A stretch of DNA of 64,000 nt from an uncultured Trueperaceae bacterium (GCA_963727505.1 CAVSGP010000004.1:448001-512000), one strand, 5' to 3'. Positions 26,377 through 39,213 are shown, counted from the first letter of the stretch. A program made the numbers and translations. Notes: generated by a model from the sequence alone, not told the origin.

Positions 26377-26463
26377 GCCGAAGTGGCGGAATTGGTAGAC
26401 GCGCATGATTCAGGGTCATGTGACCGCAAGGTCGTGGGGGTTCAAGTCCCCCCTTCGGCACCA
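26377..26463 (+). tRNA. tRNA-Leu (anticodon CAG)
   Basis: GCCGAAG/CTTCGGC acceptor stem, anticodon arm CATGA-TTCAGGG-TCATG, long variable arm, GTTCAAGTC T loop, encoded CCA. Confidence 0.97.
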
Positions 26464-26464
26464 A
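26409..26464 (+). repeat. attL core (3' half of tRNA-Leu)
   Basis: TTCAGGGTCATG...CTTCGGCACCAA identical to 39158-39213. Confidence 0.95.
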
Positions 26465-26490
26465 GTCCTAGACAGGACAAACGGCAAATC

Positions 26491-26515
26491 GGGCGACCTT
26501 CCCCCAAGGTCGCCC
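26491..26515. terminator. Element-borne hairpin after tRNA-Leu (probable replacement terminator)
   Basis: GGGCGACCTT-CCCCC-AAGGTCGCCC 10-bp stem; no clear U tract. Confidence 0.5.
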
Positions 26516-26731
26516 GCAGTCGTTGTGTGCCTATAGTGTGCCGGGATCAGCCCCGACTCGAACGACCGCCTTGTGGGCCCTCGCTCGAGAACCCCAGAGC
26601 GCTTGGGCACTGCGCCAAGAGCCAGAAACCACGCCCTGGACACTGTCAAGGCTAGCGACGGGGAGTTGCGAAGCCCTATGATTAGGAGATCGGCAGGCAA
26701 GCGGTCACCAGCCGGCCGAGATCGGAGCCAT

Positions 26732-27022
26732 ATGTTCGGTGAGACGATGACACTTGAGGATGTTGTAGGAAAGCCCCAGGTCCTTGGAACACTGATGCCA
26801 AACGCTGGAGGTTGGTATGGGCGACGGTTCGATGCGACCTTCGACGTCTTGCGCCTCGCCGACCTAGCCCTCTTGCGGACGCTGGAACCGCGTCAACGCG
26901 TCACAATCCGTAGCAGGATGGAAACTGACCGTGAAGAGCGCTTTTTCGCCGCCTACGTATGGCCAGACAACTGTCTTGTCGAGCTAATTGGGTGCGGCGC
27001 TCCCACCTCTTCGTCTATCTAA
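26732..27022 (+). CDS. Hypothetical protein (element)
   Basis: 96-aa ORF with GGAG upstream; convergent 39-bp overlap with the integrase end; no motif. Confidence 0.35.
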   Translation: MFGETMTLEDVVGKPQVLGTLMPNAGGWYGRRFDATFDVLRLADLALLRTLEPRQRVTIRSRMETDREERFFAAYVWPDNCLVELIGCGAPTSSSI

Positions 27023-28117
27023 GCCGAATCCACCGAGCATCCGATCGACAACGTCGCTGGCATCGCGCTGCAGACTCGGGAGGACGTGGCTGTAGGTGTC
27101 CAGTGTGATCTGGATGGTTGAGTGGCCGAGGCGCTCACTCACGACCTTGGGATGCACGCCGGCCAACAGGAGCAGCGAAGCGTGCGTATGCCGCAGATCG
27201 TAGAGCCGCAGGTCGAGCGGGAGCTCGGCCCGCTTGAGGGCCGGCTTGAAGTGGTGCTCTACCAGGGCACGCTGGCAGTAAGGCTCGCCGGAGAAGTTCG
27301 TGAACACCAGCTCGCCATCACGCACGTGGTCCGCTAGTAGGCTCACCAGGCCGTCGGGCAGGTCGATCTGGCGCTTCCCCTTCGCCGTCTTCGGCGGATT
27401 GAACACCCACCGACCGCCCACCTTTGACGCGGTGCGCTGGACGTGAAGGCGCCGGCCGATGAGGTCGACATCGCTCCACTTCAATCCTGCGGCCTCACTA
27501 GGGCGCATGCCGGTCCCGAGCAGGGTTGCCAGAAGCACTCGGTAGGGATCGCTCTCGATCGCTTCGAGGAAGCTACCAGCCTGCTCCTGGTCCAGCGTGC
27601 GCATCTCGTGCTGCTGTTGCCTCGGCAGGTCGACGGCGTCCGCTGGGTTCACGCGCAGCATGCGCCACTTGACGGCTTGCTGCAGCGCGTTCCGGAAGAT
27701 GGCATGCGTGAGTCTCACAGTGCGGGCTGAGAGGCCCCTGTCGAGCATCTGGCCGTAGAGGCCCTGGATCTGCAGCGGCGTGATCTTCTCAAGCCTGCTG
27801 GCGCCCAGCACGGGCGTCACGTACCGCTCGAGCGTCTCCTCGTATTGGTTGTACGTGCGCTCGCGGAGGCGTGGCTTGGCGGCCGCCCGAAGCCAGTGTT
27901 CGAGGTACTCGTTGAGCGTCTGCGGGTTGGCCTTGCTGAGCTCGCCGGCATCGTTCTTCACGAGGAGCTTGTTCAGGACGCGCTGAGCGTCCTTGTCGGT
28001 GCCGCGAACGGTTTGGTTGTAGTACTGGCGCTTCCCTGTGCCGTCGGCGCCGAGGTAGATGCGCACGACAAACGTGCGGTCGCCGCGGTCGATGATCTGG
28101 CCGGCTCTACGGGCCAT
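26984..28117 (-). CDS. int: Tyrosine recombinase/integrase
   Basis: N-terminal arm-binding-like region, TGMRPSEAAGLKW, PPKT, YDLRHTHAS, ERLGHS..ITLDTYSH; adjacent to attL. Confidence 0.96.
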   Translation of the reverse strand: MARRAGQIIDRGDRTFVVRIYLGADGTGKRQYYNQTVRGTDKDAQRVLNKLLVKNDAGELSKANPQTLNEYLEHWLRAAAKPRLRERTYNQYEETLERYVTPVLGASRLEKITPLQIQGLYGQMLDRGLSARTVRLTHAIFRNALQQAVKWRMLRVNPADAVDLPRQQQHEMRTLDQEQAGSFLEAIESDPYRVLLATLLGTGMRPSEAAGLKWSDVDLIGRRLHVQRTASKVGGRWVFNPPKTAKGKRQIDLPDGLVSLLADHVRDGELVFTNFSGEPYCQRALVEHHFKPALKRAELPLDLRLYDLRHTHASLLLLAGVHPKVVSERLGHSTIQITLDTYSHVLPSLQRDASDVVDRMLGGFGLDRRRGGSAAPN

Positions 28118-28119
28118 GC

Positions 28120-28332
28120 TTACCGCTCCTTCGGGACGGCGACGAGCTCGAGGTCGAGGGCGTCGAGAACCTTGAGCCAGGTCTCGGGAATCTTGCCGAC
28201 GTGGCCGGTCATGAGGCGGCTGACATATTGGGACTTCATGCCAACGAGTTGGGCGAGGTCGCCTTGCTTGAGGTCGCGTTCGGCAAGTCGGACGCGCACG
28301 GCTCGGCGGATCTGGTCGTTCATGGCTGCCAT
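28120..28332 (-). CDS. XRE-family HTH regulator upstream of int
   Basis: LAERDLKQGDLAQLVGMKSQYVSRLMTG HTH; GGAG RBS; 2-bp gap to int. Confidence 0.85.
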   Translation of the reverse strand: MAAMNDQIRRAVRVRLAERDLKQGDLAQLVGMKSQYVSRLMTGHVGKIPETWLKVLDALDLELVAVPKER

Positions 28333-28786
28333 GTTCTCACGTCTCCATTCCTCGGTTATCACTTTACCACTATCTGTTGACCACTGTAACTGTAAGGGGT
28401 ACACGCCAGCGTCTCCGGAAGGAGGAAATCAGGAGCGCGGTCCGCCAAAATGGCGCAACCAACTTGTCAGGGATCGAGTTCCATGCCGTGCCGGGTCACC
28501 TGCCGTGAGCGAACGCCCGGACTTATAGTCTGAGGCATACCGAGACCAGTTCACCAACGACCGAAGGGGGGATGGCGATGCTGGGTTCTTTGTTCCCGTT
28601 CACCAAACGAGTTGCTCGCGGAGGCTATGCGATTCGGCTTGGTGCGTTCGTCGCAATCGGACCAGCTTTGGACGCCCTAGGCGAAGCCGGACCGCGCTCA
28701 CAAGGAGACGAGCTGCCCGTTTCTCCGAGCAGGACGGGCGCGGAGAGGTTGTCAGCAAGCGCCAGTTCCACCGACGCGACGGGCGC

Positions 28787-29266
28787 TTGAGTCGGATGGC
28801 CAGGGTTCTGCGGACCGTCTTGGGGGCTTTCGGGCTCCTCCTTTTCCTATTCGTAGCTGCGTTCATGTACAGCGAAGGGTTCCGCGACTGGGTCTTGGGT
28901 GCGACAGCCCACCCCGAATATCAGGGCTTCCCAGACTCGGAACTTCACGCTTCGTTGGCATCTGCAAGAGCGTGGTCCATGCTCTCAGGCAAGGAACGCG
29001 GGTCCATTGGCGAGTTCCAAATGCGCTCGTCGCGCGGACCCGTCACGGCACGATTATGCAAACAATATGGGGGGTTCCCGTTCTTCGGCATCGTCAGCTA
29101 CAAGTTCCTTGAGGAATACGGCCACGGCGTTAATCTTGTTCAGGACAGTAAATCGGGTGAGGTCTACTTGAGCGTCGGATTCGGTCAGTATTCCCCTGAT
29201 CTGCTCGGATCGTTCCTCGGCACGCAGGAGGTCGGAGCTTGCCTATACCGAGTGACGAGCCCCTAG
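28787..29266 (+). CDS. Hypothetical membrane-anchored protein (cargo)
   Basis: N-terminal hydrophobic helix, no recognised motif; start uncertain. Confidence 0.55.
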   Translation: MSRMARVLRTVLGAFGLLLFLFVAAFMYSEGFRDWVLGATAHPEYQGFPDSELHASLASARAWSMLSGKERGSIGEFQMRSSRGPVTARLCKQYGGFPFFGIVSYKFLEEYGHGVNLVQDSKSGEVYLSVGFGQYSPDLLGSFLGTQEVGACLYRVTSP

Positions 29267-29435
29267 CAAGGGAGAGTATGAACCCGTTCGGTGAGCTCCG
29301 CGGCGTAAGGGAACTGAGTTAGTAGAGAAACCTAGCCCGCGCTATGGGTTGAGCGCCGTGAATGGGCGCTTGAGAAAGCCCACACCATGCTGGCCTCCCC
29401 TATGGTGGATTGAAAGAACCAAAGGGGGGATACCA

Positions 29436-29681
29436 ATGCTGAACAAATGGAAGCTCTCTACCATCGTCCTGGCCGCGGTCCTGGCCGGCTTTCTTCTGGC
29501 TCAAGTGACGGGAATGGGCTTCGTCACCGCACAGTCCGGAAGCATCGCGAAGGTCCAGCTCGACACGAGCAATTGCGGGTATGGAATCGCGATAGACCCT
29601 CTTCCATCAGGGGCGTTCGTCGTGCAGGGGCAAACAGACCAATACGGCCGGAACATGTACGTCTACAACGTCTGCAAGTAG
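29436..29681 (+). CDS. Small exported protein (cargo)
   Basis: AAAGGGGGG RBS, signal peptide MLNKWKLSTIVLAAVLAGFLLA, two Cys. Confidence 0.65.
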   Translation: MLNKWKLSTIVLAAVLAGFLLAQVTGMGFVTAQSGSIAKVQLDTSNCGYGIAIDPLPSGAFVVQGQTDQYGRNMYVYNVCK

Positions 29682-29757
29682 GCCTCGCGCAACGGTCGCT
29701 CTAGAGTGTCGATTAGACTTGTCAGGGCTGTCACGTAGGGGGGGGCGGGCGGGAACC

Positions 29758-30039
29758 ATGACCTTCATTGTCTTTTGGATCATCGCTGGCATCGTTGTGG
29801 CGCTCATCGCCAACTCGAAGGGCCGCAGCGGCTGCGGATGGTTCATCTACGGCTTCCTGCTTTGGCCAATAGCTCTCGTACATATCCTCGTGTCGCCTCC
29901 GAACCAGAAGACGGTCGAGACGCGCGCCCTTCGGAGCGGAACGCAGAAGAAGTGCCCTCACTGCGCTGAACTCATCAAGGCGGACGCCAAGGTCTGCCGC
30001 TATTGCGGCCGAGACGTCGGAACAGTTCCCACGGAGTAG
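29758..30039 (+). CDS. Membrane protein with C-terminal zinc ribbon (cargo)
   Basis: IANSKGRSGCGWFIYGFLLWPIAL TM hairpin; KKCPHCAELIKADAKVCRYCG. Confidence 0.85.
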   Translation: MTFIVFWIIAGIVVALIANSKGRSGCGWFIYGFLLWPIALVHILVSPPNQKTVETRALRSGTQKKCPHCAELIKADAKVCRYCGRDVGTVPTE

Positions 30040-30126
30040 GTGCCCCGCACAAATGGTCCTCTTCACCACATCGCGTACTGGCGTGTGCACTTGAGGTATT
30101 CGAGAATGATGAGATTGGGGGCAAAT

Positions 30127-30804
30127 ATGCGTGTCGGCTTGAGCCTTCTCGTTTGCATGTTCGCAGCATCCGCGCTCGCTCAATCGAATTGGACGTCCTA
30201 TCGCACTCTCTCAAGCGATTACCTCCTTTACATACACAACGACTCAACCGGCGCGGGAACGTTCCGTGATGTCGTCTATCTCTCCACCAAAGCCACCATC
30301 GGCGACCAGTTAGTGCATAGAGGGTCTGAAGGATTCTCGACCCCCCAGGTGCACGTGTTCCACTGCGAGGACTGGACATTCGAGGGCGTCCTGAACGGCT
30401 CTTTGATCATCTCCCGATCCGCTTTCACAATCACGCGTTTGACCACAGTGGCAAGCGACAAGGTCGTGCTTGACCCATTCCTTAAGGCGGCGGTCGGTAC
30501 GGAGGATTGGGGCAGGTCGCTTGTATCCCTTTGTTCGCGCTCCTATGTATCCGACAACCAGGTCTCAACCGACAGCCTGTACGTCCCTTTGCCCACGACG
30601 CCTGGGACACAGATAAGACTGAATCCCTCGGGCTGGTCTTCGGGCTTCTTGACTTTCATTTTCGATGCGAAGCTTAACGAGCTGGACCGCTTCCCTGCAC
30701 TGAATCGGAAGCAAGACCTTGGTTCAGGCTCACATCTGTCTCCCCTTGCAAACTGTTTTGGGAGCCCGCTCTGCGGGGAGACGGCGCGCGCCTCTCATCT
30801 GTAG
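30127..30804 (+). CDS. Exported hypothetical protein (cargo)
   Basis: Signal peptide MRVGLSLLVCMFAASALA-Q; no recognised domain. Confidence 0.55.
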   Translation: MRVGLSLLVCMFAASALAQSNWTSYRTLSSDYLLYIHNDSTGAGTFRDVVYLSTKATIGDQLVHRGSEGFSTPQVHVFHCEDWTFEGVLNGSLIISRSAFTITRLTTVASDKVVLDPFLKAAVGTEDWGRSLVSLCSRSYVSDNQVSTDSLYVPLPTTPGTQIRLNPSGWSSGFLTFIFDAKLNELDRFPALNRKQDLGSGSHLSPLANCFGSPLCGETARASHL

Positions 30805-30967
30805 CTGATCGCTCGGGCCGTGGCGTTTCGCGGTTTGGTTCGCGCGCAATTAGCTCATGCCACGGATCTTCTTCCTTTGGCCTTGGCAACCGCCTCGCAA
30901 CCCTCCGGGACGCATACTTGACTTCCTCCGCGCGTAATGGCCCGCGCTGTCTCCTCGCAGAGCGGGC
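30764..30967. repeat. 29-bp imperfect inverted repeat pair enclosing 146 bp
   Basis: GCCCGCTCTGCGGGGAGACGGCGCGCGCC (30764-30792) versus reverse complement of 30939-30967; 3 mismatches. Confidence 0.85.
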
Positions 30968-31214
30968 AAACTACACATGGCAGCCGATCACCTCGACCTC
31001 TACCGGGTCCGGCGTCGGGTGCCGGTTTATCCCATGCGCTGCTCCTCATCACCGCGCGACCCGCGGCCCACATGTGTCGCTGCGCAACCCCTCGCTCGGT
31101 GCTACGCTCGGACTTGACGCCAACAGGCCCATTGGCCTCAACTGTCATGCCAAATGTCACGGTGATGGTCGTGCATTGCAGTAAGGGACTGGGCCGCAAA
31201 GGGGGAATCCACAC

Positions 31215-31862
31215 ATGAAGAGACTTTGGGTATTGGCTGGATTGGTGCTGGGCCTGGCGCTGCTCGCCGGTTGTAGCACCGTGAACGATGCCGGGAACGG
31301 TGCTGGCCTCCGACTGCAATCGGTCGAGACCACTCCCGGCTACCTGGGTAACCCGGTCGGCGGAACCCAGGTGACTTCCGGCTTGAATGCCGCCGACGTG
31401 ATGCCGAGCACGAACCAGAAGAACTTCGACAGCACTGACTATGCGTATGTGGAGCTCGTCAGCGCTGACATCGGGCAGGTGACACTCAAGTTCGTCAGCC
31501 GGCACAGCTACGCTTCCTGCTTCGAGTACCGCATCGACGACGAAGCCCCCACCTCCACATCAAACGGCGGCGCCAACTACAACCCCGACGTCGCAGACGG
31601 GATGTGGAATTTCACCTGCCTCACCGGCGGTAGCATCGCTACCCCGGCGGAAACGACCAAAACGGTCGCCGCCAGTGACCACGTCGATATTCGCATGGTG
31701 TTCGGAGCCGAGACCAACGAACGATTCGACTGGACGCGCTTCTACCCGTTGACACTGGACAGCATGGACCAGTGCAAGAACGGAGCGTGGGAAGGCTACG
31801 GATTCAAGAACCAGGGACAGTGCATCGCTAGCATCGTTGCCAACCCCAACTCCGGCCACTAA
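31215..31862 (+). CDS. Lipoprotein (cargo)
   Basis: AAAGGGGG RBS, lipobox LLAG-C, C-terminal DQCKNGAWEGYGFKNQGQC. Confidence 0.8.
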   Translation: MKRLWVLAGLVLGLALLAGCSTVNDAGNGAGLRLQSVETTPGYLGNPVGGTQVTSGLNAADVMPSTNQKNFDSTDYAYVELVSADIGQVTLKFVSRHSYASCFEYRIDDEAPTSTSNGGANYNPDVADGMWNFTCLTGGSIATPAETTKTVAASDHVDIRMVFGAETNERFDWTRFYPLTLDSMDQCKNGAWEGYGFKNQGQCIASIVANPNSGH

Positions 31863-32263
31863 CGCCGGATTGCACAGGCACTTCTCGAACACACCGTGAC
31901 GAGGACTGAGCGGACGGCCAGGAGCAGGATGCCTGGCCGTCCGATACTGGCCAACTCGATGCCGGCGCTTCGGCCACCTAAGTGATTCAGGGGAACGTGT
32001 CCAGCGCGCGGCCCCAGTCTTGCCACCTCAGCGTTTGCATGGGCGAACGGCGAGCGAACGAGGCCCAATTGCCACCAACTCGATGGAGACCTGGTGCGGC
32101 GAAGAGCGATTGGCGCACCAGACGCCGAGCGCATCGGCGTGGCACGGGAGCCACCGTTCGTCGCTTCCGGACCGGCACCACCCTGCCGCCAGCGTCCGTC
32201 TCTGGAACGCGAGTCTTCCGTCTGCCATGCGCCACCCGACAGCGGGAGCCGCAGCGGGCGCCT

Positions 32264-32926
32264 TCAATGCGGCCCATACCCAATCGCGCGGCGCACCGTC
32301 TCCGGGTCCGCGATCGGGTGCCGCTCCGGCCAATACAACGCGAGCGCCGTAGCCAGCACCAGGTCGTCGTGCGGGTTCTCCCGCCAGTCATTCCCGTACG
32401 TGTCATGACCGCGAGCGTTGAGCTTCACCCGGAACGCCAGCATCTCGTCCCTGAGCACCTGAGCCAGCGACAAGTCGCTCTGTACGCGCAACACGCCCTT
32501 CTGAAGCGCCACCTGCAGGCGTGACACCAGATCGCGCTTCGGGACGCGATGGTAGCCGTCCGTGGAGGTGGCCGCGTCCCCGCCCGTGATGGTCACAGCC
32601 TTCGGCTTGAGGCCCGCCTGCCGCAACAGGTCGACCACGGGCCGGCCGACACCCGTCGCATCCACAATGAGCGTCACATCGCCGTCCCAATAGGTGCGCC
32701 CGTCAAGGTGCATCGGCGCTCCCATCAGCCGCTTGATGATCTCCCCCACCCGCTCCACCTGATTGGGGTAGGACGTTCCGAGCGGCAGGCGCTCGAGATG
32801 CCCGAGGCGGTACAGTCGCGGCTTGCTCACGTCAGGATGCTCGACCTTCTCCACGACGCTGATGGCCGTGTAGTCGTTGGCCTGGCCGAGGTCAACGCCC
32901 ATGAAGAACTTGCGGGAACGCTTCAT
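32264..32926 (-). CDS. Terminase large-subunit nuclease (RNase H-like) domain as a stand-alone gene
   Basis: MGVDLG..NDYTAI, IVDATGVGRPVVD, HDDLVLATAL; own GGAGG RBS and ATGA overlap with the ATPase gene. Confidence 0.85.
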   Translation of the reverse strand: MKRSRKFFMGVDLGQANDYTAISVVEKVEHPDVSKPRLYRLGHLERLPLGTSYPNQVERVGEIIKRLMGAPMHLDGRTYWDGDVTLIVDATGVGRPVVDLLRQAGLKPKAVTITGGDAATSTDGYHRVPKRDLVSRLQVALQKGVLRVQSDLSLAQVLRDEMLAFRVKLNARGHDTYGNDWRENPHDDLVLATALALYWPERHPIADPETVRRAIGYGPH

Positions 32927-33681
32927 GCCGAGGCCTCCAGGAACGGCTCGAAACCGTCGTCCATCGCGGCTTGCACGAGCTCGTAGTTGAAGACTTGATC
33001 ATCGGCGTCGCTGAAGACGCACATGTACTCCTGCTGATACCGCCAGAGCGGCATGCTGGCCTTCTCCTGCTCGAGGAACGACGCGCTGATGCGGGGAATG
33101 TCGGTTGCCGGCACCTCGGTGCGCGTCCAGCCGGTCGCCTCGCTCCACAGCTCCCAGAAGTGCCGAAGCTTGCCCCACGGCGTGCTCATCAGGACCATGC
33201 GGCCGTTGGAGACGGCGAGCATGGGCCGCATCGCGGCGTGAATATCGTCTTCCACCCAGGCGGCCTCATCCTCCACGATGAGCGTCGGAGCGGAGAAGCC
33301 GCGAATGGTGGCGTCCGAGCCCGGGAGGGCGGCCACGCGTCCGCCGTTCCTCACCGTCCAGGAGAGCTTGTTGTCCTCCGAGAGGTCGGGCTTGCGGGGG
33401 AGCAGCTCGGCGAACTCCTTGACCTTCCGGAACAGCTCGCTGCTCTGCCGCTGCGACGGGCTCACGATGAGCGTCAGACTCTTCGGGACGTAAAGACTGG
33501 TATGTAGACCTAGCACCGCGGCGAGGGTACTCTTGCCGCCCTGCCGCGTGACATTGATGAGGTCGCGCTTGCTGTCGCTCGTGAGCACCTTCCGCTGCCA
33601 CGGGTCGAGCTTGAGCCCGAGCACTTCCTCAGCGAACGCCGCGCGATCCAGCGCGTACCTGAAGTCACTCGCTAGGCTCAT
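32923..33681 (-). CDS. Terminase large-subunit ATPase domain as a stand-alone gene
   Basis: LDPWQ adenine-binding motif, TRQGGKS Walker A, LIVEDEAA Walker B, LMSTP motif III, YQQEYMCVF. Confidence 0.9.
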   Translation of the reverse strand: MSLASDFRYALDRAAFAEEVLGLKLDPWQRKVLTSDSKRDLINVTRQGGKSTLAAVLGLHTSLYVPKSLTLIVSPSQRQSSELFRKVKEFAELLPRKPDLSEDNKLSWTVRNGGRVAALPGSDATIRGFSAPTLIVEDEAAWVEDDIHAAMRPMLAVSNGRMVLMSTPWGKLRHFWELWSEATGWTRTEVPATDIPRISASFLEQEKASMPLWRYQQEYMCVFSDADDQVFNYELVQAAMDDGFEPFLEASA

Positions 33682-34147
33682 GGTTCTCCAGCGCGTGCAT
33701 GACCGCCACGCGCGCCTCCGGGAACGGCTGAAGGGCGCCCATCAGGTCCGCCCGGAGCGCGATCCACTGGTTGCTCACCGTGATGTTGACGGTCGTGCCG
33801 GTCTGCAGCTCACCAAGCATCTTCGCGAGCAACTCGAGATTGCTCCTAGCCTCCTTGATGGCCAGCAGCGCGGTCTTATGGTCGCCGGCGCTCTTGCTCT
33901 TCGCGAGGATGCCCTCCGCCTCGCTCTGCAGGCCCCGCACCTTCGCCAACAGGTCATCGGCGTTCGTGTTCGCCGCGGTCGGCGCGCCCGCCATCTCCGC
34001 CACCATGCGGTCCTTGTGCCTGTGCACGGCGCTCTTGCTGAGCCTGAATGCCTCCGCCACCTGCCGGACGGGCATGCCCCTGGCGAGCGCCTCCTCGACC
34101 TCCCTGCGCTTCGGATGCGTCGTGATGGTCGTTTGGCTCGCGCTCAC
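33665..34147 (-). CDS. Terminase small-subunit-like HTH protein
   Basis: HPKRREVEEALARGMPVRQVAEAFRLSKSAVHRHK HTH plus helical body; overlaps the terminase ATPase start. Confidence 0.7.
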   Translation of the reverse strand: MSASQTTITTHPKRREVEEALARGMPVRQVAEAFRLSKSAVHRHKDRMVAEMAGAPTAANTNADDLLAKVRGLQSEAEGILAKSKSAGDHKTALLAIKEARSNLELLAKMLGELQTGTTVNITVSNQWIALRADLMGALQPFPEARVAVMHALENHEPSE

Positions 34148-34276
34148 GCCTGCCACTCCACACGCAGCTCCTCGAGCGCGACGGGGCTCACGTCACGCCC
34201 GCCATTAACGCCCGAAACGCGGCGTACAAATGACCATCCAACAGCCACCCCGCCGCACGAAGCTTCCGACGCAGCC

Positions 34277-34915
34277 TCACGCCAACTCCTCCTCCGGATC
34301 CACGTCCGGGGAAAACAGTCCGGCCGTGTTCCGAATCGCCGCCAAAGCCCTGAAGCGCCCACCGAAATCATGCGAGAGCCACACCGGCACATTGGAGTTC
34401 CCCCGCTGCAACGGCTCAACGTCCGCCCCGACAACCCCGCGCGCCAGCTGCTCATTCGCGTCGCCGCCATGCTTACCCGCCAACCGCACAGCCGCCGACG
34501 TGGCACGGTGAAACTCCCGATTAGCCCGCTCACTCAAGTGCTTCGACAACGTCACCGCGCGCCGCACCGACGCGTCAGCCGCCTCCATCACCGCGTACCA
34601 CTGCGCCTCAGCCTCCCGATAAGCAACCGACCCCGCAGCGACCTCCGCCAGCTCCCGCTCGTCCTCCGCGACTGACTCCAGCCCGGCGAGCTCCGCCTCG
34701 ACCTCCGCGATCTCCTCGCGATGCTGCGCCAGCATGGACTCGACCGCATCCCGACGGGCCCGCAGGTCCGCGACCTCGTCGATGTCCACGCCACCGGACT
34801 TCGCCTCCCGATACTCGCGGTCGCGCTTCGCAAGCAACGCTTCCAACCGCGGCTCATCCGAACGCAGCGCGTCCAGCGTCTCGCTCGTGCTCTTGAGTTC
34901 CGTCTTCGTGCTCAC
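34277..34915 (-). CDS. Coiled-coil hypothetical protein (element)
   Basis: GGAGG RBS, GTG at 34915; long Glu/Ala/Leu/Arg heptad-rich helix. Confidence 0.7.
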   Translation of the reverse strand: MSTKTELKSTSETLDALRSDEPRLEALLAKRDREYREAKSGGVDIDEVADLRARRDAVESMLAQHREEIAEVEAELAGLESVAEDERELAEVAAGSVAYREAEAQWYAVMEAADASVRRAVTLSKHLSERANREFHRATSAAVRLAGKHGGDANEQLARGVVGADVEPLQRGNSNVPVWLSHDFGGRFRALAAIRNTAGLFSPDVDPEEELA

Positions 34916-35076
34916 GGCTCCACCTCCAGAAAGTTGTTGCTCTCCAGGTACGCGTTGACTTTCTCCGAGGTCTTCCCTCGAAGCGCCTGCAGCTCTTCCG
35001 CCGTCGCCCTCCTCGACTTCCACTGGTAGCCCTTGGCCTTCGGCTCGCTCCGCTCGTCCTTCTGCTGGTCGCTCAT
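34912..35076 (-). CDS. 54-aa hypothetical protein (not in ORF track)
   Basis: GGGAGG RBS; MSDQQKDERSEPKAKGYQWKSRRATAEELQALRGKTSEKVNAYLESNNFLEVEP; stop overlaps next GTG. Confidence 0.65.
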   Translation of the reverse strand: MSDQQKDERSEPKAKGYQWKSRRATAEELQALRGKTSEKVNAYLESNNFLEVEP

Positions 35077-35086
35077 GCTTCCTCCC

Positions 35087-35119
35087 AAAGAAAATGGCCC
35101 GATCTCTGCGACCGGGCCA
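35087..35119 (-). terminator. Terminator-like hairpin upstream of the packaging operon
   Basis: Minus strand TGGCCCGGTC-GCAGA-GATCGGGCCA followed by TTTTCTTT. Confidence 0.65.
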
Positions 35120-35154
35120 CCAGCGGCTTCTACAGTCCCAAGCGTACATTCGCG

Positions 35155-35583
35155 CTAACTCGCGCTAACGCCGTACTTCCGGCGCAACCGCTCGACCTCC
35201 GCCTCGGGCACCAGCCAGCCCGAACGGTTATCGCCCCGCCGGCCCTTCCGAGCGTCGATCAAGCCCTCTCGGCACTGCCACGTAAGCGTCGAGTACGGCA
35301 GGCCCGTCAACTCCTGGACCCCCTCGAGCGTGTACTCCCTCGGCGCGGCCGGCGCCCGCTGCCAGGACGGCGTGTAAGCCCGCTCACGAGGCGACACGAA
35401 GCTCGGATGGGCACTGCGTCGCGCGGGCCCCGAGGGGCGGCCGTAGAGCACCCTGACCGCCTCTGAGGGGCCATCATCCGCCGATACCATCCAGACTTCG
35501 CAGGCGTCACAGTATAGCGGCGCTCGCGTCGGGGTGGATGCCCCCTGCCCGCACTCAGGGCACACGTACCGGTTCACTTCCAA
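35155..35583 (-). CDS. Zinc-finger plus MerR/Xis-like HTH protein
   Basis: CPECG...CDAC; YTLEGVQELTGLPYSTLTWQCREGLI...WLVPEAEVERL. Confidence 0.75.
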   Translation of the reverse strand: MEVNRYVCPECGQGASTPTRAPLYCDACEVWMVSADDGPSEAVRVLYGRPSGPARRSAHPSFVSPRERAYTPSWQRAPAAPREYTLEGVQELTGLPYSTLTWQCREGLIDARKGRRGDNRSGWLVPEAEVERLRRKYGVSAS

Positions 35584-35897
35584 CCCCCAGAGCGCGCCAG
35601 GAGCTCTAAGAGGTCCGCGAGTCTCAGCACGGCGAACATCTGCGACTTCGAGCCGCGCCGTGACTCCACCAGCACGACCCCGTCCGTGCCCTCGGGTGGC
35701 GTCAGGAACTCCGCTAGCTTGGCTCTCGTCTTCACCTGCGCGCGCATGTTGCCCACGAGTACGTCGACCGTCTCGGAGTGCCCCAGCGACCGGCCATCGC
35801 TTCCGCGAGCTCTGACCGCCGGCAGGCCAGCCTCGGACGCGGCCCGAACCACCATCCGCTCGCCTCGATCGCCCTTCCTTTTCGACGGGTGAGCCAT
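35574..35897 (-). CDS. Holliday-junction-resolvase-like PD-(D/E)xK nuclease
   Basis: SKRKGDRGER, VDVLV..AQVKTR, FAVLRLADLLELL. Confidence 0.7.
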   Translation of the reverse strand: MAHPSKRKGDRGERMVVRAASEAGLPAVRARGSDGRSLGHSETVDVLVGNMRAQVKTRAKLAEFLTPPEGTDGVVLVESRRGSKSQMFAVLRLADLLELLARSGGWK

Positions 35898-36192
35898 CAA
35901 GCCCACCGGCCTTCGCGCACTATTCGCACACTGGCAGCACCAGGCGAGCATGACCGCAAGCGCCAACATGCGCGCCTGACGCCACTATTCGCCAGCTCTG
36001 CCTGAGGGGTTCGACAGACTAGTAGTCTGTCCGAGCCTTCGTCCCGCTGGACTGTCGACGTCCCACCTCTTGGCCCGAAGCGCGCCAGCCGACGGAAGCT
36101 AGTCCCACTCGGCGCCGCTGAGGACGCGATATTCGCGCCCTTTGGCTCTCCACCGTCCCACAAACAAGAGCCCACGCACTCTCGTCCAACGG

Positions 36193-37419
36193 TCATGCGC
36201 TGTGCTCCTGAATGAGACTACGCAGGCGCGCCCTATCTTCAGTGGTGGCGCGATCCTTCGAGAAGATGGCGGTGAGTTCGTCCTGGGCGTCGGTTCCTTG
36301 GAACTCGCCAGCTATCCATTTCTTGTGGAGGTTCTTGACTTCCTCTGGAGTATCCCCATTCACAGCGTTCACAGGGGGGTTTGGTGTGAATGCCTGTGAA
36401 TGAGAGGGGTCTGTGCCGTTCACAGGGGTTTGCGCTGTCTCTGTCGCATCTTCTAGCACGCTGTGAACAAGGTGAACGATAGAGTAGTTGCCTTTGTCGT
36501 CACTGGCGAGCATGCCTTCGTTGCGCATGCGGATGAGAAGGTGGCGTGTGCTGTCGCGTTTGAGTGTTGCGGCTTCGGCGATTTCCTTTGGAGTGAGGCC
36601 TTCCGGGGCTTCCTCTAGAGCCCGGAGGATGGCTCTGCGTTCTTGCGAGAGGCTCCATTCGCGCGCAGAGCCGAGGACTTGCCAGAGCCCGGTGTGATTG
36701 TCGAATTGGAGGGCGAGCTCTCGGTCCTCGACATCTCTGCCGGTGATGTGCATGGTGGCGTCGGCGTCGCCGCGGGTTCGTTTGATGACGATCATTCCGT
36801 CTAGAGGTCCGGTGATGCCGTAGCTGCCGGATATCTCCTCGAAGGGATCGGCTCCTTGTGACTTCCGTGTGTGGTGGACGAGGAGGATGCATATGTCGAA
36901 CTCTTTTGTGAGCGCTTGGAGTTCTGAGACCATCCTGCTGTCGCCGCTATATAGGTCTTCGCTCTTGATGCGTTGGCCGCGGATTCGGACGAGCGTGTCG
37001 ATCGCGATGACTTTGGTGCTGGGGTGGTCTTGGATCCATTTGCGTAGTGCCTGTATGAGCCCGCGGTCCAGGCCAGGTGCTTCGGTGAGCATGTGGAAGG
37101 TGGTTGGCCAGCCGGTTTCGTCGGCTCCGAGGAATTGCAGCCGGGTTCGGAGTCGCTGGCGTGTGTCCTCGAGCGCTAGGTACAGGACGCCTGCAGGCTC
37201 TACTGGGATCTTCCCGAAGGCGAGTCCGCCTGCGGCGACGCTGAGGAGGAGGGCGAGGACCCACCAGCTCTTGCCTGTCTTTGGTGGGGCGGCGAGAAGC
37301 CAGAGGCCGTAGGCGATGACGTCGGGCACGACCCATTGCTGGGGTGGTATCTCCATGTCGCGGAGGTCGTTGGCGGTGAACGTATGGAGGGTCGGCGGGA
37401 GGGAGCGGGGGCTTGGCAT
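36193..37419 (-). CDS. AAA_25/RepA-like replicative helicase with C-terminal wHTH
   Basis: LLAAPPKTGKSW Walker A, VLYLALED, IAIDTL, LVHHTRK, ISGSYGI, ITGRDVE. Confidence 0.88.
   Translation of the reverse strand: MPSPRSLPPTLHTFTANDLRDMEIPPQQWVVPDVIAYGLWLLAAPPKTGKSWWVLALLLSVAAGGLAFGKIPVEPAGVLYLALEDTRQRLRTRLQFLGADETGWPTTFHMLTEAPGLDRGLIQALRKWIQDHPSTKVIAIDTLVRIRGQRIKSEDLYSGDSRMVSELQALTKEFDICILLVHHTRKSQGADPFEEISGSYGITGPLDGMIVIKRTRGDADATMHITGRDVEDRELALQFDNHTGLWQVLGSAREWSLSQERRAILRALEEAPEGLTPKEIAEAATLKRDSTRHLLIRMRNEGMLASDDKGNYSIVHLVHSVLEDATETAQTPVNGTDPSHSQAFTPNPPVNAVNGDTPEEVKNLHKKWIAGEFQGTDAQDELTAIFSKDRATTEDRARLRSLIQEHSA
36359..36477. repeat. Iteron-like TTCACAG/CTGTGAA repeats within the helicase gene
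   Basis: Seven exact or near copies at 36359, 36368, 36384, 36394, 36419, 36461, 36470 in both orientations. Confidence 0.65.
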
Positions 37420-37772
37420 CAGATGTCCTCGCGGTCGGCCCAGCGGAGCATTCGTATTCGTGCCTCGAGGCCTCCGGAGAGCGCGTCCTCGATCAGCTCC
37501 CGCGCCCTGGTCTTGGCGAAGTGGCTGAGCTGAAGCCTGCCGGACTCCAAGGTCTTCTGCAGCCGCTCAATCTTTGCCCGGTCGTCGTCGTTGAGGGCGT
37601 GCGCCTTGGCGTAGGCGATGCCGAACAATGCCCAGCCCAGCCCAATCTGTTCGTGCTCGTTGAAGCTGTCACGGTTGGCGGCGTCGCGGAGGTACTCCAG
37701 ATCGACTTGTCGTGCTAGAGTCTTCCCGTACCCGTCGGTGCCGCGCCCCGCCTGCCAGCGGGGCTCTTTCAT
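37419..37772 (-). CDS. Hypothetical protein (element)
   Basis: 117-aa ORF with start/stop overlaps to both neighbours. Confidence 0.65.
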   Translation of the reverse strand: MKEPRWQAGRGTDGYGKTLARQVDLEYLRDAANRDSFNEHEQIGLGWALFGIAYAKAHALNDDDRAKIERLQKTLESGRLQLSHFAKTRARELIEDALSGGLEARIRMLRWADREDI

Positions 37773-38044
37773 GCCGGACCCTCTGCTGGCTCTTCCCTCC
37801 AGCCTCCAGGCAGTGCTTGGCCGCCGGATTCAATGAAGGCTCTCACGTCCTCTGGGCGGAATCTGACGTTGCGGCCGATCTTGACGCAGGGCAACAGGCG
37901 ACGGCGTGCATAGTCGTAGACGCTGCTGGGCGGGAGGTCGAGGATTTCGGCGACGTCTCTGCCGGAAAGCAAGTGCATGATGCCTGCGGTGCGGTGCCGT
38001 TCCTGTTGCGCATGCGTGTCGCGTCCCTCAGATACATTGGTCAT
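37769..38044 (-). CDS. Excisionase-like HTH_17 DNA-binding protein
   Basis: LLSGRDVAEILDLPPSSVYDYARRRLLPCVKIGRNVRFRPEDVRAFI; AAGGAGG RBS. Confidence 0.88.
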   Translation of the reverse strand: MTNVSEGRDTHAQQERHRTAGIMHLLSGRDVAEILDLPPSSVYDYARRRLLPCVKIGRNVRFRPEDVRAFIESGGQALPGGWREEPAEGPA

Positions 38045-38259
38045 GCAAACCCTCCTTGGGTTTGTGCTTGGGTGGAGGCGCTGTCACTCTTGGCGGAGAA
38101 GGCGCCTCCATCTGCTATTGGTTTCGGGCTGTTCGTGTCTGGCCGCAGCAAGCCGTCCTCCTTATGGTCTCACCATAGGGAGAAGAGCGGCCCGGTGTCA
38201 ATCGCAATAAGGGCGTCAGGGACGTGAAAAAGGGGTGTTTCTGCACCACCCGAAGAGGT

Positions 38260-39018
38260 TCATACCTTTTTTGATGGCCGGCCAGAGTCGCGCTTTGCCC
38301 GAGGAATGTCCAGCAACGTGGATGCGGCGTTCAAGGCTTGATTCACCGTTGCCTTGGACTTGTGCATCAGCACCTGCAACTCGCGGACGTCCACGCCACA
38401 GGTCTGGTACAGGACAAACCATTCGATATTGCGGCCGGTCGTGGAGGTCGTCAACGGCAGAGCGAGCCCTTCCTCCGCCAGGAAGGCCTCAAACCGGTCC
38501 ATGTATGCAGTCACTTGGCGTTCAAGTTCCTTCAAGGCTTGAGCCCTGAAGTTGTCGCGACCCTCGTTCCAAGCGAGCCGGTTCCATCCGACGATCGGCT
38601 CCGGCTTGAAGTCATACAGATCGTCTCTCGTGCGGTGGACGGCTATCCTTGGCAGTTCGCCCCAAGATTTGCCGGCAATGGCCGGTTCCTCGATCCAGAG
38701 GCACAGACTATCTAGGGCCTGGTCGCGGACCCAGCGGGCGTCGATGTTGTGCGCTTCGAGCGCGCGCGCGAGCGCAGCGGCAAACGCTAGAAAGCCTGCT
38801 TGGCCTTCCAATATGACTGCTACGTTCTCGTAGATAAGCCCTGGCCTTGAGAACTCCGCCCGCGTTAGGCCCGAAGCGCCTTCAAGAAAGCGCCTCAACT
38901 CTTTGAGCGGATCTCCAGCAAGGTCTCTCAGTACGTGAGGCGCGTGGCGCTCGACCCTTTCAAGAAACGTCGCCCGCGCGAATACCAGCTCGGCCTCGCT
39001 AACCGGTTCAGAGCTCAT
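38260..39018 (-). CDS. Hypothetical protein with C-terminal HTH-like segment (possible regulator)
   Basis: First gene inside attR; EWFVLYQTCGVDVRELQVLMHKSKATVNQAL and basic tail. Confidence 0.6.
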   Translation of the reverse strand: MSSEPVSEAELVFARATFLERVERHAPHVLRDLAGDPLKELRRFLEGASGLTRAEFSRPGLIYENVAVILEGQAGFLAFAAALARALEAHNIDARWVRDQALDSLCLWIEEPAIAGKSWGELPRIAVHRTRDDLYDFKPEPIVGWNRLAWNEGRDNFRAQALKELERQVTAYMDRFEAFLAEEGLALPLTTSTTGRNIEWFVLYQTCGVDVRELQVLMHKSKATVNQALNAASTLLDIPRAKRDSGRPSKKV

Positions 39019-39157
39019 GATCTTGTGTGCGAGTAGTGTGCCAACTCGGCGCCCTCTGCCATACTGACGCGAGCATAGCATACGGCCAGCCCTTTTCCCT
39101 TACGTCTCGGGCGCACTTCTCGGCCTATTCGTCCTCACCGGCCATACCTTTTAGCGT

Positions 39158-39213
39158 TTCAGGGTCATGTGACCGCAAGGTCGTGGGGGTTCAAGTCCCC
39201 CCTTCGGCACCAA
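39158..39213 (+). repeat. attR core (duplicated tRNA-Leu 3' half)
   Basis: 56/56 identical to 26409-26464; 5' half of tRNA absent. Confidence 0.95.

What the first reader, a model, noticed from the sequence alone, without database searches (positions are those of the whole stretch)
26409..39213. Capsid-less, terminase-only satellite-like element in tRNA-Leu
Seen: perfect 56-bp att repeats bound 12.8 kb carrying int, XRE, Xis-like HTH, AAA_25 helicase, resolvase-like nuclease, a TerS-like gene and both TerL domains. I recognise no portal, capsid, head protease, tail or lysis gene, and there is little unassigned space for them. Known: classical PICIs usually carry at most TerS and borrow helper TerL; capsid-forming PICIs carry TerL together with portal and capsid. 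Inference: a complete private packaging motor without a head fits neither pattern and may be a distinct satellite class that docks its own motor on helper procapsids or moves DNA by another route. Identical att cores and tight gene coupling argue against a decayed prophage.
Basis: partly seen in the sequence, partly recalled or inferred. Interest (0 to 1): 0.88.

Follow-up and report, generated by a model that had tools for sequence, protein, structure and literature searches.

The report
Capsid-less element carrying its own terminase
A 12.8-kb mobile island in a tRNA gene has a full phage DNA-packaging enzyme set but no genes for a virus shell; it belongs to a widespread, apparently undescribed family in bacteria and archaea that probably loads its own DNA into other phages' capsids.

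Summary
Confirmed. Perfect 56-bp att repeats bound a 12.75-kb element in tRNA-Leu; two same-genus genomes show the empty site. It encodes an integrase, regulators, an AAA_25 helicase, a resolvase-like nuclease, a TerS-like protein and a large terminase split into ATPase and nuclease genes with intact motifs. No portal, capsid, tail or lysis gene was found, and no portal or capsid elsewhere in the genome.

This is a family, not a local deletion. A portal followed the terminase in 1 of 80 genome loci and 1 of 80 metagenome loci. Repeat-bounded 5-17 kb relatives occur in many bacterial phyla and in methanogens; circular forms and Salinibacter plasmids exist; dN/dS is 0.06-0.35. A model puts the TerS C-terminus on the ATPase N-terminus. 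The same split terminase also serves true phages, interleaved in the tree.

Best reading (0.6): a PICI-like satellite that brings its own terminase to helper procapsids. Packaging, excision and a helper are not shown, and portal detection has false negatives. I found one published precedent (NitKor-E1, called a relic) and no family description. This scan reported the family twice before, on other DNA.

The parts
26377..26463 (+). tRNA-Leu(CAG), integration target, left intact
   Evidence: ARAGORN; empty site in G004 and G007
26409..26464 (+). att core, tRNA-side copy (56 nt)
26984..28117 (-). tyrosine integrase, 377 aa
   Evidence: PF00589 4.5e-23, phrog_1; 57% identical to the integrase of relative L023
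28120..28332 (-). XRE-family HTH regulator (about 70 aa; longest ORF starts at 28404)
   Evidence: PF01381; homologues beside int in related elements
28787..31862 (+). cargo block, five genes (159, 81, 93, 232, 215 aa). By sequence: membrane or secreted proteins, one zinc-ribbon membrane protein, one lipoprotein-like
   Evidence: zinc ribbon / phrog_8436; no PADLOC hit; four of five have no homologue in the fetched loci; signal and membrane character read from the sequence
32264..32926 (-). stand-alone terminase nuclease (RNase H fold), 220 aa
   Evidence: PF17289, phrog_27743; D12, D89, D187, D188 invariant in 45 homologues; family profile matches solved terminase nucleases 5m1q/5tge at 2-4e-7
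32923..33681 (-). stand-alone terminase ATPase, 252 aa
   Evidence: PF03237, phrog_7579; DPWQ, RQGGKS, LIVEDEA and STP motifs with R46, K50, D138, E139 invariant in 18; profile matches 4zni (1e-19) and T4 gp17. Motif names are recalled
33665..34147 (-). TerS-like protein, 160 aa: N-terminal HTH, helical hairpin, conserved C-terminal helix pair
   Evidence: HTH hits; model pLDDT 87; family found in 128 fetched loci; predicted contact with the ATPase N-terminus; fold searches inconclusive
34277..34915 (-). 212-aa helical hairpin / long coiled coil; candidate capsid-interference factor (lead only)
   Evidence: model pLDDT 95; only generic coiled-coil matches; nearest named Atlas cluster Psu at 0.90, low recognition; homologues upstream of the terminase genes in L014, L024, L033, L189, L293
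34912..35076 (-). 54-aa hypothetical
   Evidence: no family
35155..35583 (-). 142-aa zinc-finger + HTH_17 protein
   Evidence: PF12728 0.001, under cut-off; CxxC pairs read from the sequence
35574..35897 (-). Holliday-junction-resolvase-like nuclease (about 107 aa)
   Evidence: phrog_244 1.4e-6; Hjc 0.0027; 45% to a gene on plasmid pSR31; start codon read
36193..37419 (-). AAA_25 (RepA-like) helicase with C-terminal HTH, 408 aa; no primase domain recognised
   Evidence: PF13481 7e-30
37419..37772 (-). 117-aa hypothetical
   Evidence: no family over threshold
37769..38044 (-). Xis/AlpA-like HTH_17 protein
   Evidence: PF12728 6.9e-13; phrog_66
38260..39081 (-). 273-aa hypothetical, probably a regulator; the only unassigned ORF of capsid size
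   Evidence: no Pfam, PHROG, NCBIfam or PADLOC assignment; Atlas neighbours at 0.96-0.97 carry no Pfam, nearest named are YdfE / Trans_reg_dom at 0.78; not folded
39158..39213 (+). att core, distal copy (56 nt), followed by a hairpin shared with the empty site

Best explanation
A PICI-like phage satellite that carries its own three-gene terminase. Shown: site-specific residence in tRNA-Leu with an empty site in kin; intact int, xis, helicase, TerS-like, ATPase and nuclease genes; no head genes found; the same architecture in many phyla and as circular replicons. Inferred: on infection by a tailed helper phage the element excises (Int + Xis) and replicates to concatemers (AAA_25 helicase, resolvase-like nuclease). 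Its TerS binds an element-specific site and holds the ATPase by the TerS C-terminal helices. The separate nuclease subunit cuts the DNA, and the motor docks on the portal of helper procapsids, taking heads, tails and lysis from the helper. Its own TerL frees it from needing a TerS that fits the helper's TerL. The motor stays close to a phage-type TerL while TerS diverges or is swapped. The 212-aa coiled coil (and tape-measure genes in relatives) may tune the hijacked particle; this step is a guess.
For: (1) Recurrence. A portal next to the terminase was found in 1 of 80 genome loci (L060), in none of the 62 with at least 2 kb downstream, and in 1 of 80 metagenome loci (L224; 23 had at least 1.8 kb downstream). 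46 of 83 genome loci have an integrase and 44 of 83 a TerS homologue within the flanks held, up to 10 kb. (2) 18 genome loci have flanking direct repeats enclosing 4.8-17.5 kb, plus L293. PHROG on 107 of their ORFs of 100 aa or more found primases, antirepressors, tape-measure and tail-fibre genes, no portal or major capsid. (3) Free forms: circular L189 (9.9 kb, ATPase 61% identical), circular L128 (15.2 kb), complete plasmids pSR11, pSR14, pSR31 of Salinibacter ruber and a 16.3-kb Streptomyces circle with integrase; no portal or capsid in 36 plasmid proteins scanned (which includes Rhodococcus pDJL3). (4) Purifying selection in 18 pairs without a detected portal: ATPase dN/dS 0.06-0.31 (16 unsaturated), nuclease 0.09-0.35 (15 unsaturated). 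(5) TerS C-terminus on ATPase N-terminus: score 0.71, best control 0.00; the mark was reached by 116 of 157 solved complexes and 2 of 215 mismatched pairs; runs agree in at least 86% of contacts; partner pLDDT at least 61. The contact joins L11 and L139, each invariant in its alignment. (6) Sister pairs of element and portal-bearing locus keep TerL and differ in TerS: L020/L060, one assembly, ATPase 86%, nuclease 75%, TerS 54%; L096/L101 87/82/45%. A different short gene family stands in the TerS position in the window's own clade.
Against: No particle, transfer or excision data: no attP or attB joint in four laid runs of contigs. No helper in this genome. TerL-portal docking was not tested. 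Portal detection has false negatives: the presumed portal and capsid of L101 had no PHROG assignment at E 0.05. Portal-less loci are not one clade (10 changes on 71 rows; AU p 1e-103), which repeated prophage decay would also give. Decayed copies exist: L293 ATPase interrupted, L289 and L067 remnants. The window's TerS lacks the CxxC found in 30 of 38 aligned homologues, and no primase was recognised. The one full prophage found beside such an element (L176) has a full-length TerL with no BLAST match to the split family at 1e-4. Pairwise dN/dS covers the whole path between two copies, which could include phage stages, and some paired loci are short contigs.
Confidence: 0.6

Rival explanations
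1. The element is a satellite or defence island whose terminase works mainly by interference: it competes for or jams the helper's portal or motor, or cuts helper concatemers. The element's own DNA is packaged by the helper motor or moves by another route.
For: TerL stays 75-87% identical to portal-linked phage TerL in sister pairs, as a competitor would. Extra nuclease paralogues occur (three in L055, two in L076 and pSR31). A satellite inhibitor of TerL is known (Gpi of PLE, PMC11417361, abstract).
Against: All catalytic motifs of both halves are invariant, and a cognate TerS with a predicted ATPase contact is kept. A mere jammer need not keep a full active set. Gpi is not described as a TerL homologue in the abstract.
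Confidence: 0.17
2. Repeatedly formed prophage relics: deletions remove everything downstream of terL and leave att-bounded replication-plus-terminase stumps with no function.
For: Portal-less loci are interleaved with phages. Broken copies are common. Krupovic et al. read the similar NitKor-E1 as a likely relic (PMC6563490, passage). Stray tape-measure and tail genes occur in some copies.
Against: Starred clades are wholly portal-less, including the window's 9-row clade. dN/dS is well under 1. Stand-alone circles and ParA plasmids have the same content. Portal-bearing versions are 1 in 80 in cellular genomes, the reverse of what decay of a common prophage would give. The att cores are identical and no core gene has an internal stop.
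Confidence: 0.1
3. The terminase has been repurposed for a capsid-free job: resolving or linearising replicated element DNA, or feeding it into vesicles or a tape-measure-lined conduit.
For: Plasmid forms in cultured strains. Tape-measure-like genes in L042, L050, L091, L024, L080, L116, pSR11, pSR14. No helper in this genome.
Against: Near-identity to portal-linked TerL in sister phages implies the same partner surface. Tape-measure genes are known in a real satellite class (EPIPs, PMC12822802, passages). The window has no tape-measure gene.
Confidence: 0.08
4. A divergent, unrecognised capsid or portal is present, so these are minimal capsid-forming satellites.
For: PHROG missed the presumed head genes of L101. 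The 273-aa ORF was not folded.
Against: No unassigned ORF over 273 aa in the window. The 273-aa ORF has no homologue in the fetched loci. Clustering found no frequent large unassigned family shared by the genome loci other than primase-like ones. L032 encloses only 4.8 kb and L052 8.3 kb.
Confidence: 0.05

Closest known systems
Phage-inducible chromosomal islands (PICI/SaPI), as modelled in SatelliteFinder (PMC10085698; passages)
   Same: About 10-15 kb, att-bounded, integrase, HTH regulators/Xis, replication helicase, TerS, accessory cargo, no tail or lysis genes.
   Different: PICIs are described with TerS only, redirecting the helper's packaging machinery; here both TerL halves are present and conserved. 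No AlpA/Stl or capsid-morphogenesis gene was matched. The family also occurs in archaea and as plasmids.
Capsid-forming PICIs (cf-PICI; PMC10085698, PMC13612085 passages) and Streptomyces satellite Ando (PMC13587820 passages)
   Same: Satellites that encode their own large terminase and lack tail and lysis genes.
   Different: They encode capsid proteins (cf-PICIs also portal, protease, head-tail connectors) and borrow tails. Here no head gene was found, and TerL is split in two genes.
NitKor-E1 of Nitrosopumilus koreensis AR1 (PMC6563490, passage)
   Same: Integrated element with tyrosine integrase, TerS and TerL as its only tailed-virus genes.
   Different: Single case, called enigmatic and likely a relic. 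Whether its TerL is split or belongs to this family was not tested.
EPIPs of Mycolicibacterium (PMC12822802, passages)
   Same: Helper-dependent satellites with TerS, integrase and a tape-measure gene, like several relatives here.
   Different: Serine integrase, head-tail adaptors, no TerL in the gene list seen. The window has no tape-measure gene.
PICI-like tycheposons (10.1101/2020.12.28.424599) and VEIMEs (PMC9618062); passages
   Same: Small integrative elements with integrase, replication module and a packaging gene.
   Different: They carry TerS or a capsid gene; large terminase is ascribed to the helper.
Tailed phages with split TerL (PHROG 7579 + 27743/5909; IMG/VR loci)
   Same: Same two-gene TerL, often the same TerS family.
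   Different: Portal and head genes follow the nuclease.

Membership tests
PICI | Integrase at a defined att site | tested here: met
PICI | Regulator (AlpA, MerR or Stl type) | tested here: inconclusive
   XRE and HTH_17/MerR_1-like hits; SatelliteFinder profiles not available
PICI | Primase-replicase module | tested here: inconclusive
   AAA_25 helicase without recognised primase; relatives have primase-helicases
PICI | Small terminase that redirects packaging | tested here: inconclusive
   position, HTH, and predicted ATPase contact; PHROG TerS hit only 0.0028; fold searches unspecific
PICI | Capsid-morphogenesis gene | tested here: inconclusive
   212-aa hairpin is a candidate; Psu at 0.90 is a lead only
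PICI | No other phage structural or packaging genes (relies on helper TerL) | tested here: not met
   both TerL halves present and intact. TerL is not among the forbidden components listed in the passages read, so the tool might still call such elements PICI
PICI | Induced and packaged by a helper phage | not testable with these tools
   needs experiment; no joint seen
cf-PICI | Large terminase | tested here: met
   (split in two genes)
cf-PICI | Portal | tested here: not met
   no hit and no unassigned ORF over 273 aa
cf-PICI | Major capsid protein, protease, head-tail adaptor and connector | tested here: inconclusive
   no hits; 212-aa ORF is a coiled coil; 273-aa ORF not folded
Prophage (tailed phage) | Portal, capsid, tail and lysis modules | tested here: not met
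   no portal, capsid, tail or holin family matched in the element; no portal or capsid in the 97%-complete genome with the profiles tried
EPIP | Tape-measure protein, serine integrase, head-tail adaptors | tested here: not met
   tyrosine integrase and no tape-measure gene in the window; some relatives have one

The most novel reading that the evidence does not exclude
A third packaging strategy for phage satellites, shared by bacteria and archaea: no head genes, but a complete private terminase (exchangeable TerS plus a two-subunit TerL kept compatible with phage portals) that is plugged onto helper procapsids. The module would be traded back and forth with true phages, carried by integrative islands and plasmids alike, and in some members joined by a tape-measure gene. 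A natural two-subunit TerL would also let the ATPase and nuclease steps of packaging be tested separately.
Probability: 0.45. Interest if true: 0.88.

Novelty: new variant of a known kind. Interest (0 to 1): 0.74.

Why it matters
The satellite classes in the papers I read either borrow the helper's motor (PICI, PLE, tycheposons) or build their own heads (cf-PICI). A class with a motor but no head fills the gap between them. It would change how isolated terminase hits are read: they are now taken for virus hallmarks or prophage relics. It spans Deinococcota, Bacillota, Acidobacteriota, Chloroflexota, Pseudomonadota, Myxococcota and methanogenic archaea at about 50% identity, so it may be a common vehicle of gene transfer. 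Cultured carriers make it testable: Salinibacter ruber M8 with pSR11 (isolated S. ruber phages are the subject of PMC5776456, search listing only), Thermovorax subterraneus DSM 21563, Methanospirillum purgamenti.

Tried and rejected
Read laying: four runs of contigs gave no attP or attB joint; contigs cannot show absence. Five of the seven listed runs held under 0.2 of the words, so no habitat claim is made.

Fold searches: the TerS-like model matched only generic hairpins (best Z 9.1 over 58 residues; BFVD best E 1e-3, uncharacterised; no terminase among 19 PDB sequence hits). The 212-aa model matched only generic coiled coils (Z 11.3 or less; Psu and Sid not among the listed rows). BLAST between it and L033's similar ORF was not significant, although the family HMM later hit it at 3.7e-8.

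A viral-contig scan with the TerS alignment could not be run (too little conservation), so TerS-led searches of viral contigs remain open. A scan with the pSR11 nuclease found no relative. Cultured phages: only 4 weak nuclease matches, 25-32%. PADLOC gave nothing for the cargo. No pac/cos or origin could be picked from short repeats.

The 71-nt repeat in L055 is probably internal, not an att site. Short repeats in L018, L087 and L091 (21-30 nt) are weaker att calls.

Literature: 10 full-text searches found no description of this family. The library lacks most subscription papers, and no supplements were read; satellite tables in supplements could hold such elements.
Full report
Observation. 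The repeats, tRNA and gene set are as described. The 56-nt cores are identical. G004 and G007, of nine same-genus genomes searched, show tRNA-Leu joined directly to the sequence right of attR. Of five genomes inspected, the other three differ near the site without carrying this terminase. All 18 curated ORFs translate without internal stops. The ATPase keeps its adenine-binding, Walker A, Walker B and coupling motifs (motif names recalled), and the nuclease its acidic residues. Family profiles match solved terminase domains. This is the only match to the ATPase in the 97%-complete genome. Portal (PF04860, PF05133) and capsid (PF05065) searches, and HMMs built from fetched phage head genes, found nothing there apart from one marginal E 0.0085 hit. 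The host is probably a Trueperaceae bacterium (inference from named relatives). In its phylum 9 of 364 genomes have the nuclease, all in the host's family.

The family. The stand-alone nuclease has 7,212 relatives among 8,000 scored candidates of similar length. The best 80 of 392 confirmed genome loci come from many bacterial phyla and from methanogens at 40-53% identity. ATPase and nuclease are separate ORFs in 73 loci and fused in one; the commonest junction is a 4-nt overlap. Genes were called with my own simple caller and clustered: 44 of 83 genome loci (the 80 plus three fetched regions, two of them duplicates) have the TerS homologue and 46 an integrase. The large portal and capsid clusters were all from viral contigs. 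HMMs of those clusters hit only L060's own portal and a capsid in L014 that belongs to a separate neighbouring prophage with its own full-length TerL. Most, not all, large genes just downstream of the nuclease were also scanned in Pfam or PHROG. Of 80 metagenome loci one has a portal. These are top-ranked hits, not a random sample. In contrast 61 of 80 viral loci hit the head HMMs, largely by construction since the HMMs came from them.

Eighteen genome loci have flanking repeats around 4.8-17.5 kb, most at a tRNA or next to the integrase. Examples: Thermovorax 10 kb at tRNA-Lys, Truepera 13.6 kb, Magnetococcales 10.4 kb, Chloroflexota 13.1 kb, Myxococcales 10 kb, Methanomicrobiales 16.5 kb. 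Four calls are weak, L067 lacks the ATPase and L032 an integrase. PHROG on 107 of their ORFs gave primases, antirepressors, toxins of the RelE type, tape-measure, neck and tail-fibre genes, and no portal or major capsid. L293, from the host's family, repeats the window's layout in 9.8 kb at tRNA-Gln with an interrupted ATPase. Free forms: L189 is a circular 9.9-kb contig with primase-helicase, the 212-aa homologue, TerS and both TerL halves, and no integrase. L128 is circular with an integrase. Three complete Salinibacter plasmids and a Streptomyces circle carry the split module, and Rhodococcus pDJL3 a full-length TerL with tape measure. The S. ruber genome paper only notes a terminase on pSR31 (PMC6060240, passages).

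Selection and history. dN/dS between loci without a detected portal is 0.06-0.31 for the ATPase and 0.09-0.35 for the nuclease (18 pairs, 2 and 3 saturated). Window against four relatives gives 0.13-0.43, and a fifth is saturated. On a tree of 71 chosen loci (44 without, 27 with portal; L101/L104 labelled by gene position only; L043 dropped for a broken ATPase) the label changes 10 times, at least 7 forced by starred branches, and one clade is rejected. The window lies in a starred 9-row portal-less clade. So the module moves between phages and head-less elements, or head genes are lost repeatedly and the result persists. The tree cannot give the direction. Sister pairs keep TerL at 75-87% while TerS is at 45-54%.

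TerS and the coiled coil. The TerS-like model has an HTH, a two-helix hairpin and a C-terminal helix pair. Fold searches were unspecific, but the complex model supports binding of that helix pair to the ATPase N-terminus: 0.71 against 0.00 for the best control; mark reached by 116 of 157 solved and 2 of 215 mismatched pairs; at least 86% contact agreement; partner pLDDT at least 61. It shows neither affinity nor function. No solved TerS matched the family by sequence, so a pass from memory is less likely but not excluded. The window copy lacks the family's CxxC. The 212-aa ORF has 38 relatives at E 0.001 or better and folds as a helical hairpin with a 105-residue helix. Psu is a weak lead only.

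Mechanism. Most likely a satellite that excises, replicates and packages itself with its own terminase into helper heads (0.6). Rivals: interference (0.17), relic (0.10), capsid-free use (0.08), hidden head genes (0.05). Integration, gene integrity, recurrence, selection and free circular forms are shown. Excision of this copy, helper identity, portal docking and encapsidation are inferred.

Known systems. It works like a PICI but fails the PICI feature of relying on the helper's TerL, and fails cf-PICI for want of a portal (PMC10085698, passages; PMC13612085, passages). The closest published case is NitKor-E1, one archaeal element with TerS and TerL only, read as a relic (PMC6563490, passage). 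EPIPs, tycheposons, VEIMEs and Ando differ as listed (passages). PLE Gpi: abstract only. Four further papers were searched for passages and held nothing on this family. Ten searches found no family description; subscription papers and supplements were not seen. Two earlier notes of this scan describe the same kind of element in other genomes. I reached the family reading before seeing them, and they are not independent support.

Verdict. Real, intact as far as sequence shows, and one member of a broad undescribed satellite-like family. New variant of a known kind; interest 0.74; up to 0.88 if own-motor packaging into helper heads is shown.

Noticed in passing
L055 9266-11253; L076 9189-10678; L273 5178-6436; L268; L203: Several elements carry two or three terminase-nuclease paralogues, mostly in tandem, behind one ATPase, which suggests exchangeable nuclease subunits.
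   Followed up: no
L074 9995-11875; L086 9995-11920: Gene order is permuted in two methanogen loci: nuclease, TerS, ATPase.
   Followed up: no
L062, L071, L073, L078, L079, L082, L084, L085, L089, L092, L093: A mostly Acidobacteriota clade has ATPase + nuclease among host-like genes, often with a divergent upstream gene of one family (cluster c31) and with no integrase or att found within the flanks held; possibly domesticated or minimal forms.
   Followed up: no
L016, L023, L024, L026, L029, L290, L293 upstream of the ATPase: In the window's own clade the TerS position holds unrelated short (about 100-115 aa) helical proteins, and the ATPases are about 15-20 aa longer.
   Followed up: partly
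L014 5684-20000 and L176: A complete-looking prophage with its own full-length TerL, portal and capsid lies directly beside one element; candidate helper, but its TerL is not of the split family.
   Followed up: partly
L042 9742-12468; L050 5621-8362; L091 11713-14171; L024 3166-8511; L269 7132-9018; L270 9641-11467; L272 8976-13744: Tape-measure genes, some with neck or tail-chaperone genes, in head-less elements and plasmids; pDJL3 has a full-length TerL.
   Followed up: partly
L032 8387-13290: A 4.8-kb att-bounded unit with only TerS, ATPase, nuclease and a tail-spike-like gene, no integrase.
   Followed up: no
window 33789-35795 (run X2, records 10-12): A 95-97% identical variant of the element occurs in a run that also holds exact matches.
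   Followed up: no
L098, L101, L103, L104: Presumed methanogen viruses whose portal-position (about 460 aa) and capsid-position (304 aa) genes have no PHROG assignment; divergent head genes.
   Followed up: partly
window 26732-27022 (+): A possible 96-aa ORF between the att core and the integrase end, overlapping it by 39 nt; no family.
   Followed up: no
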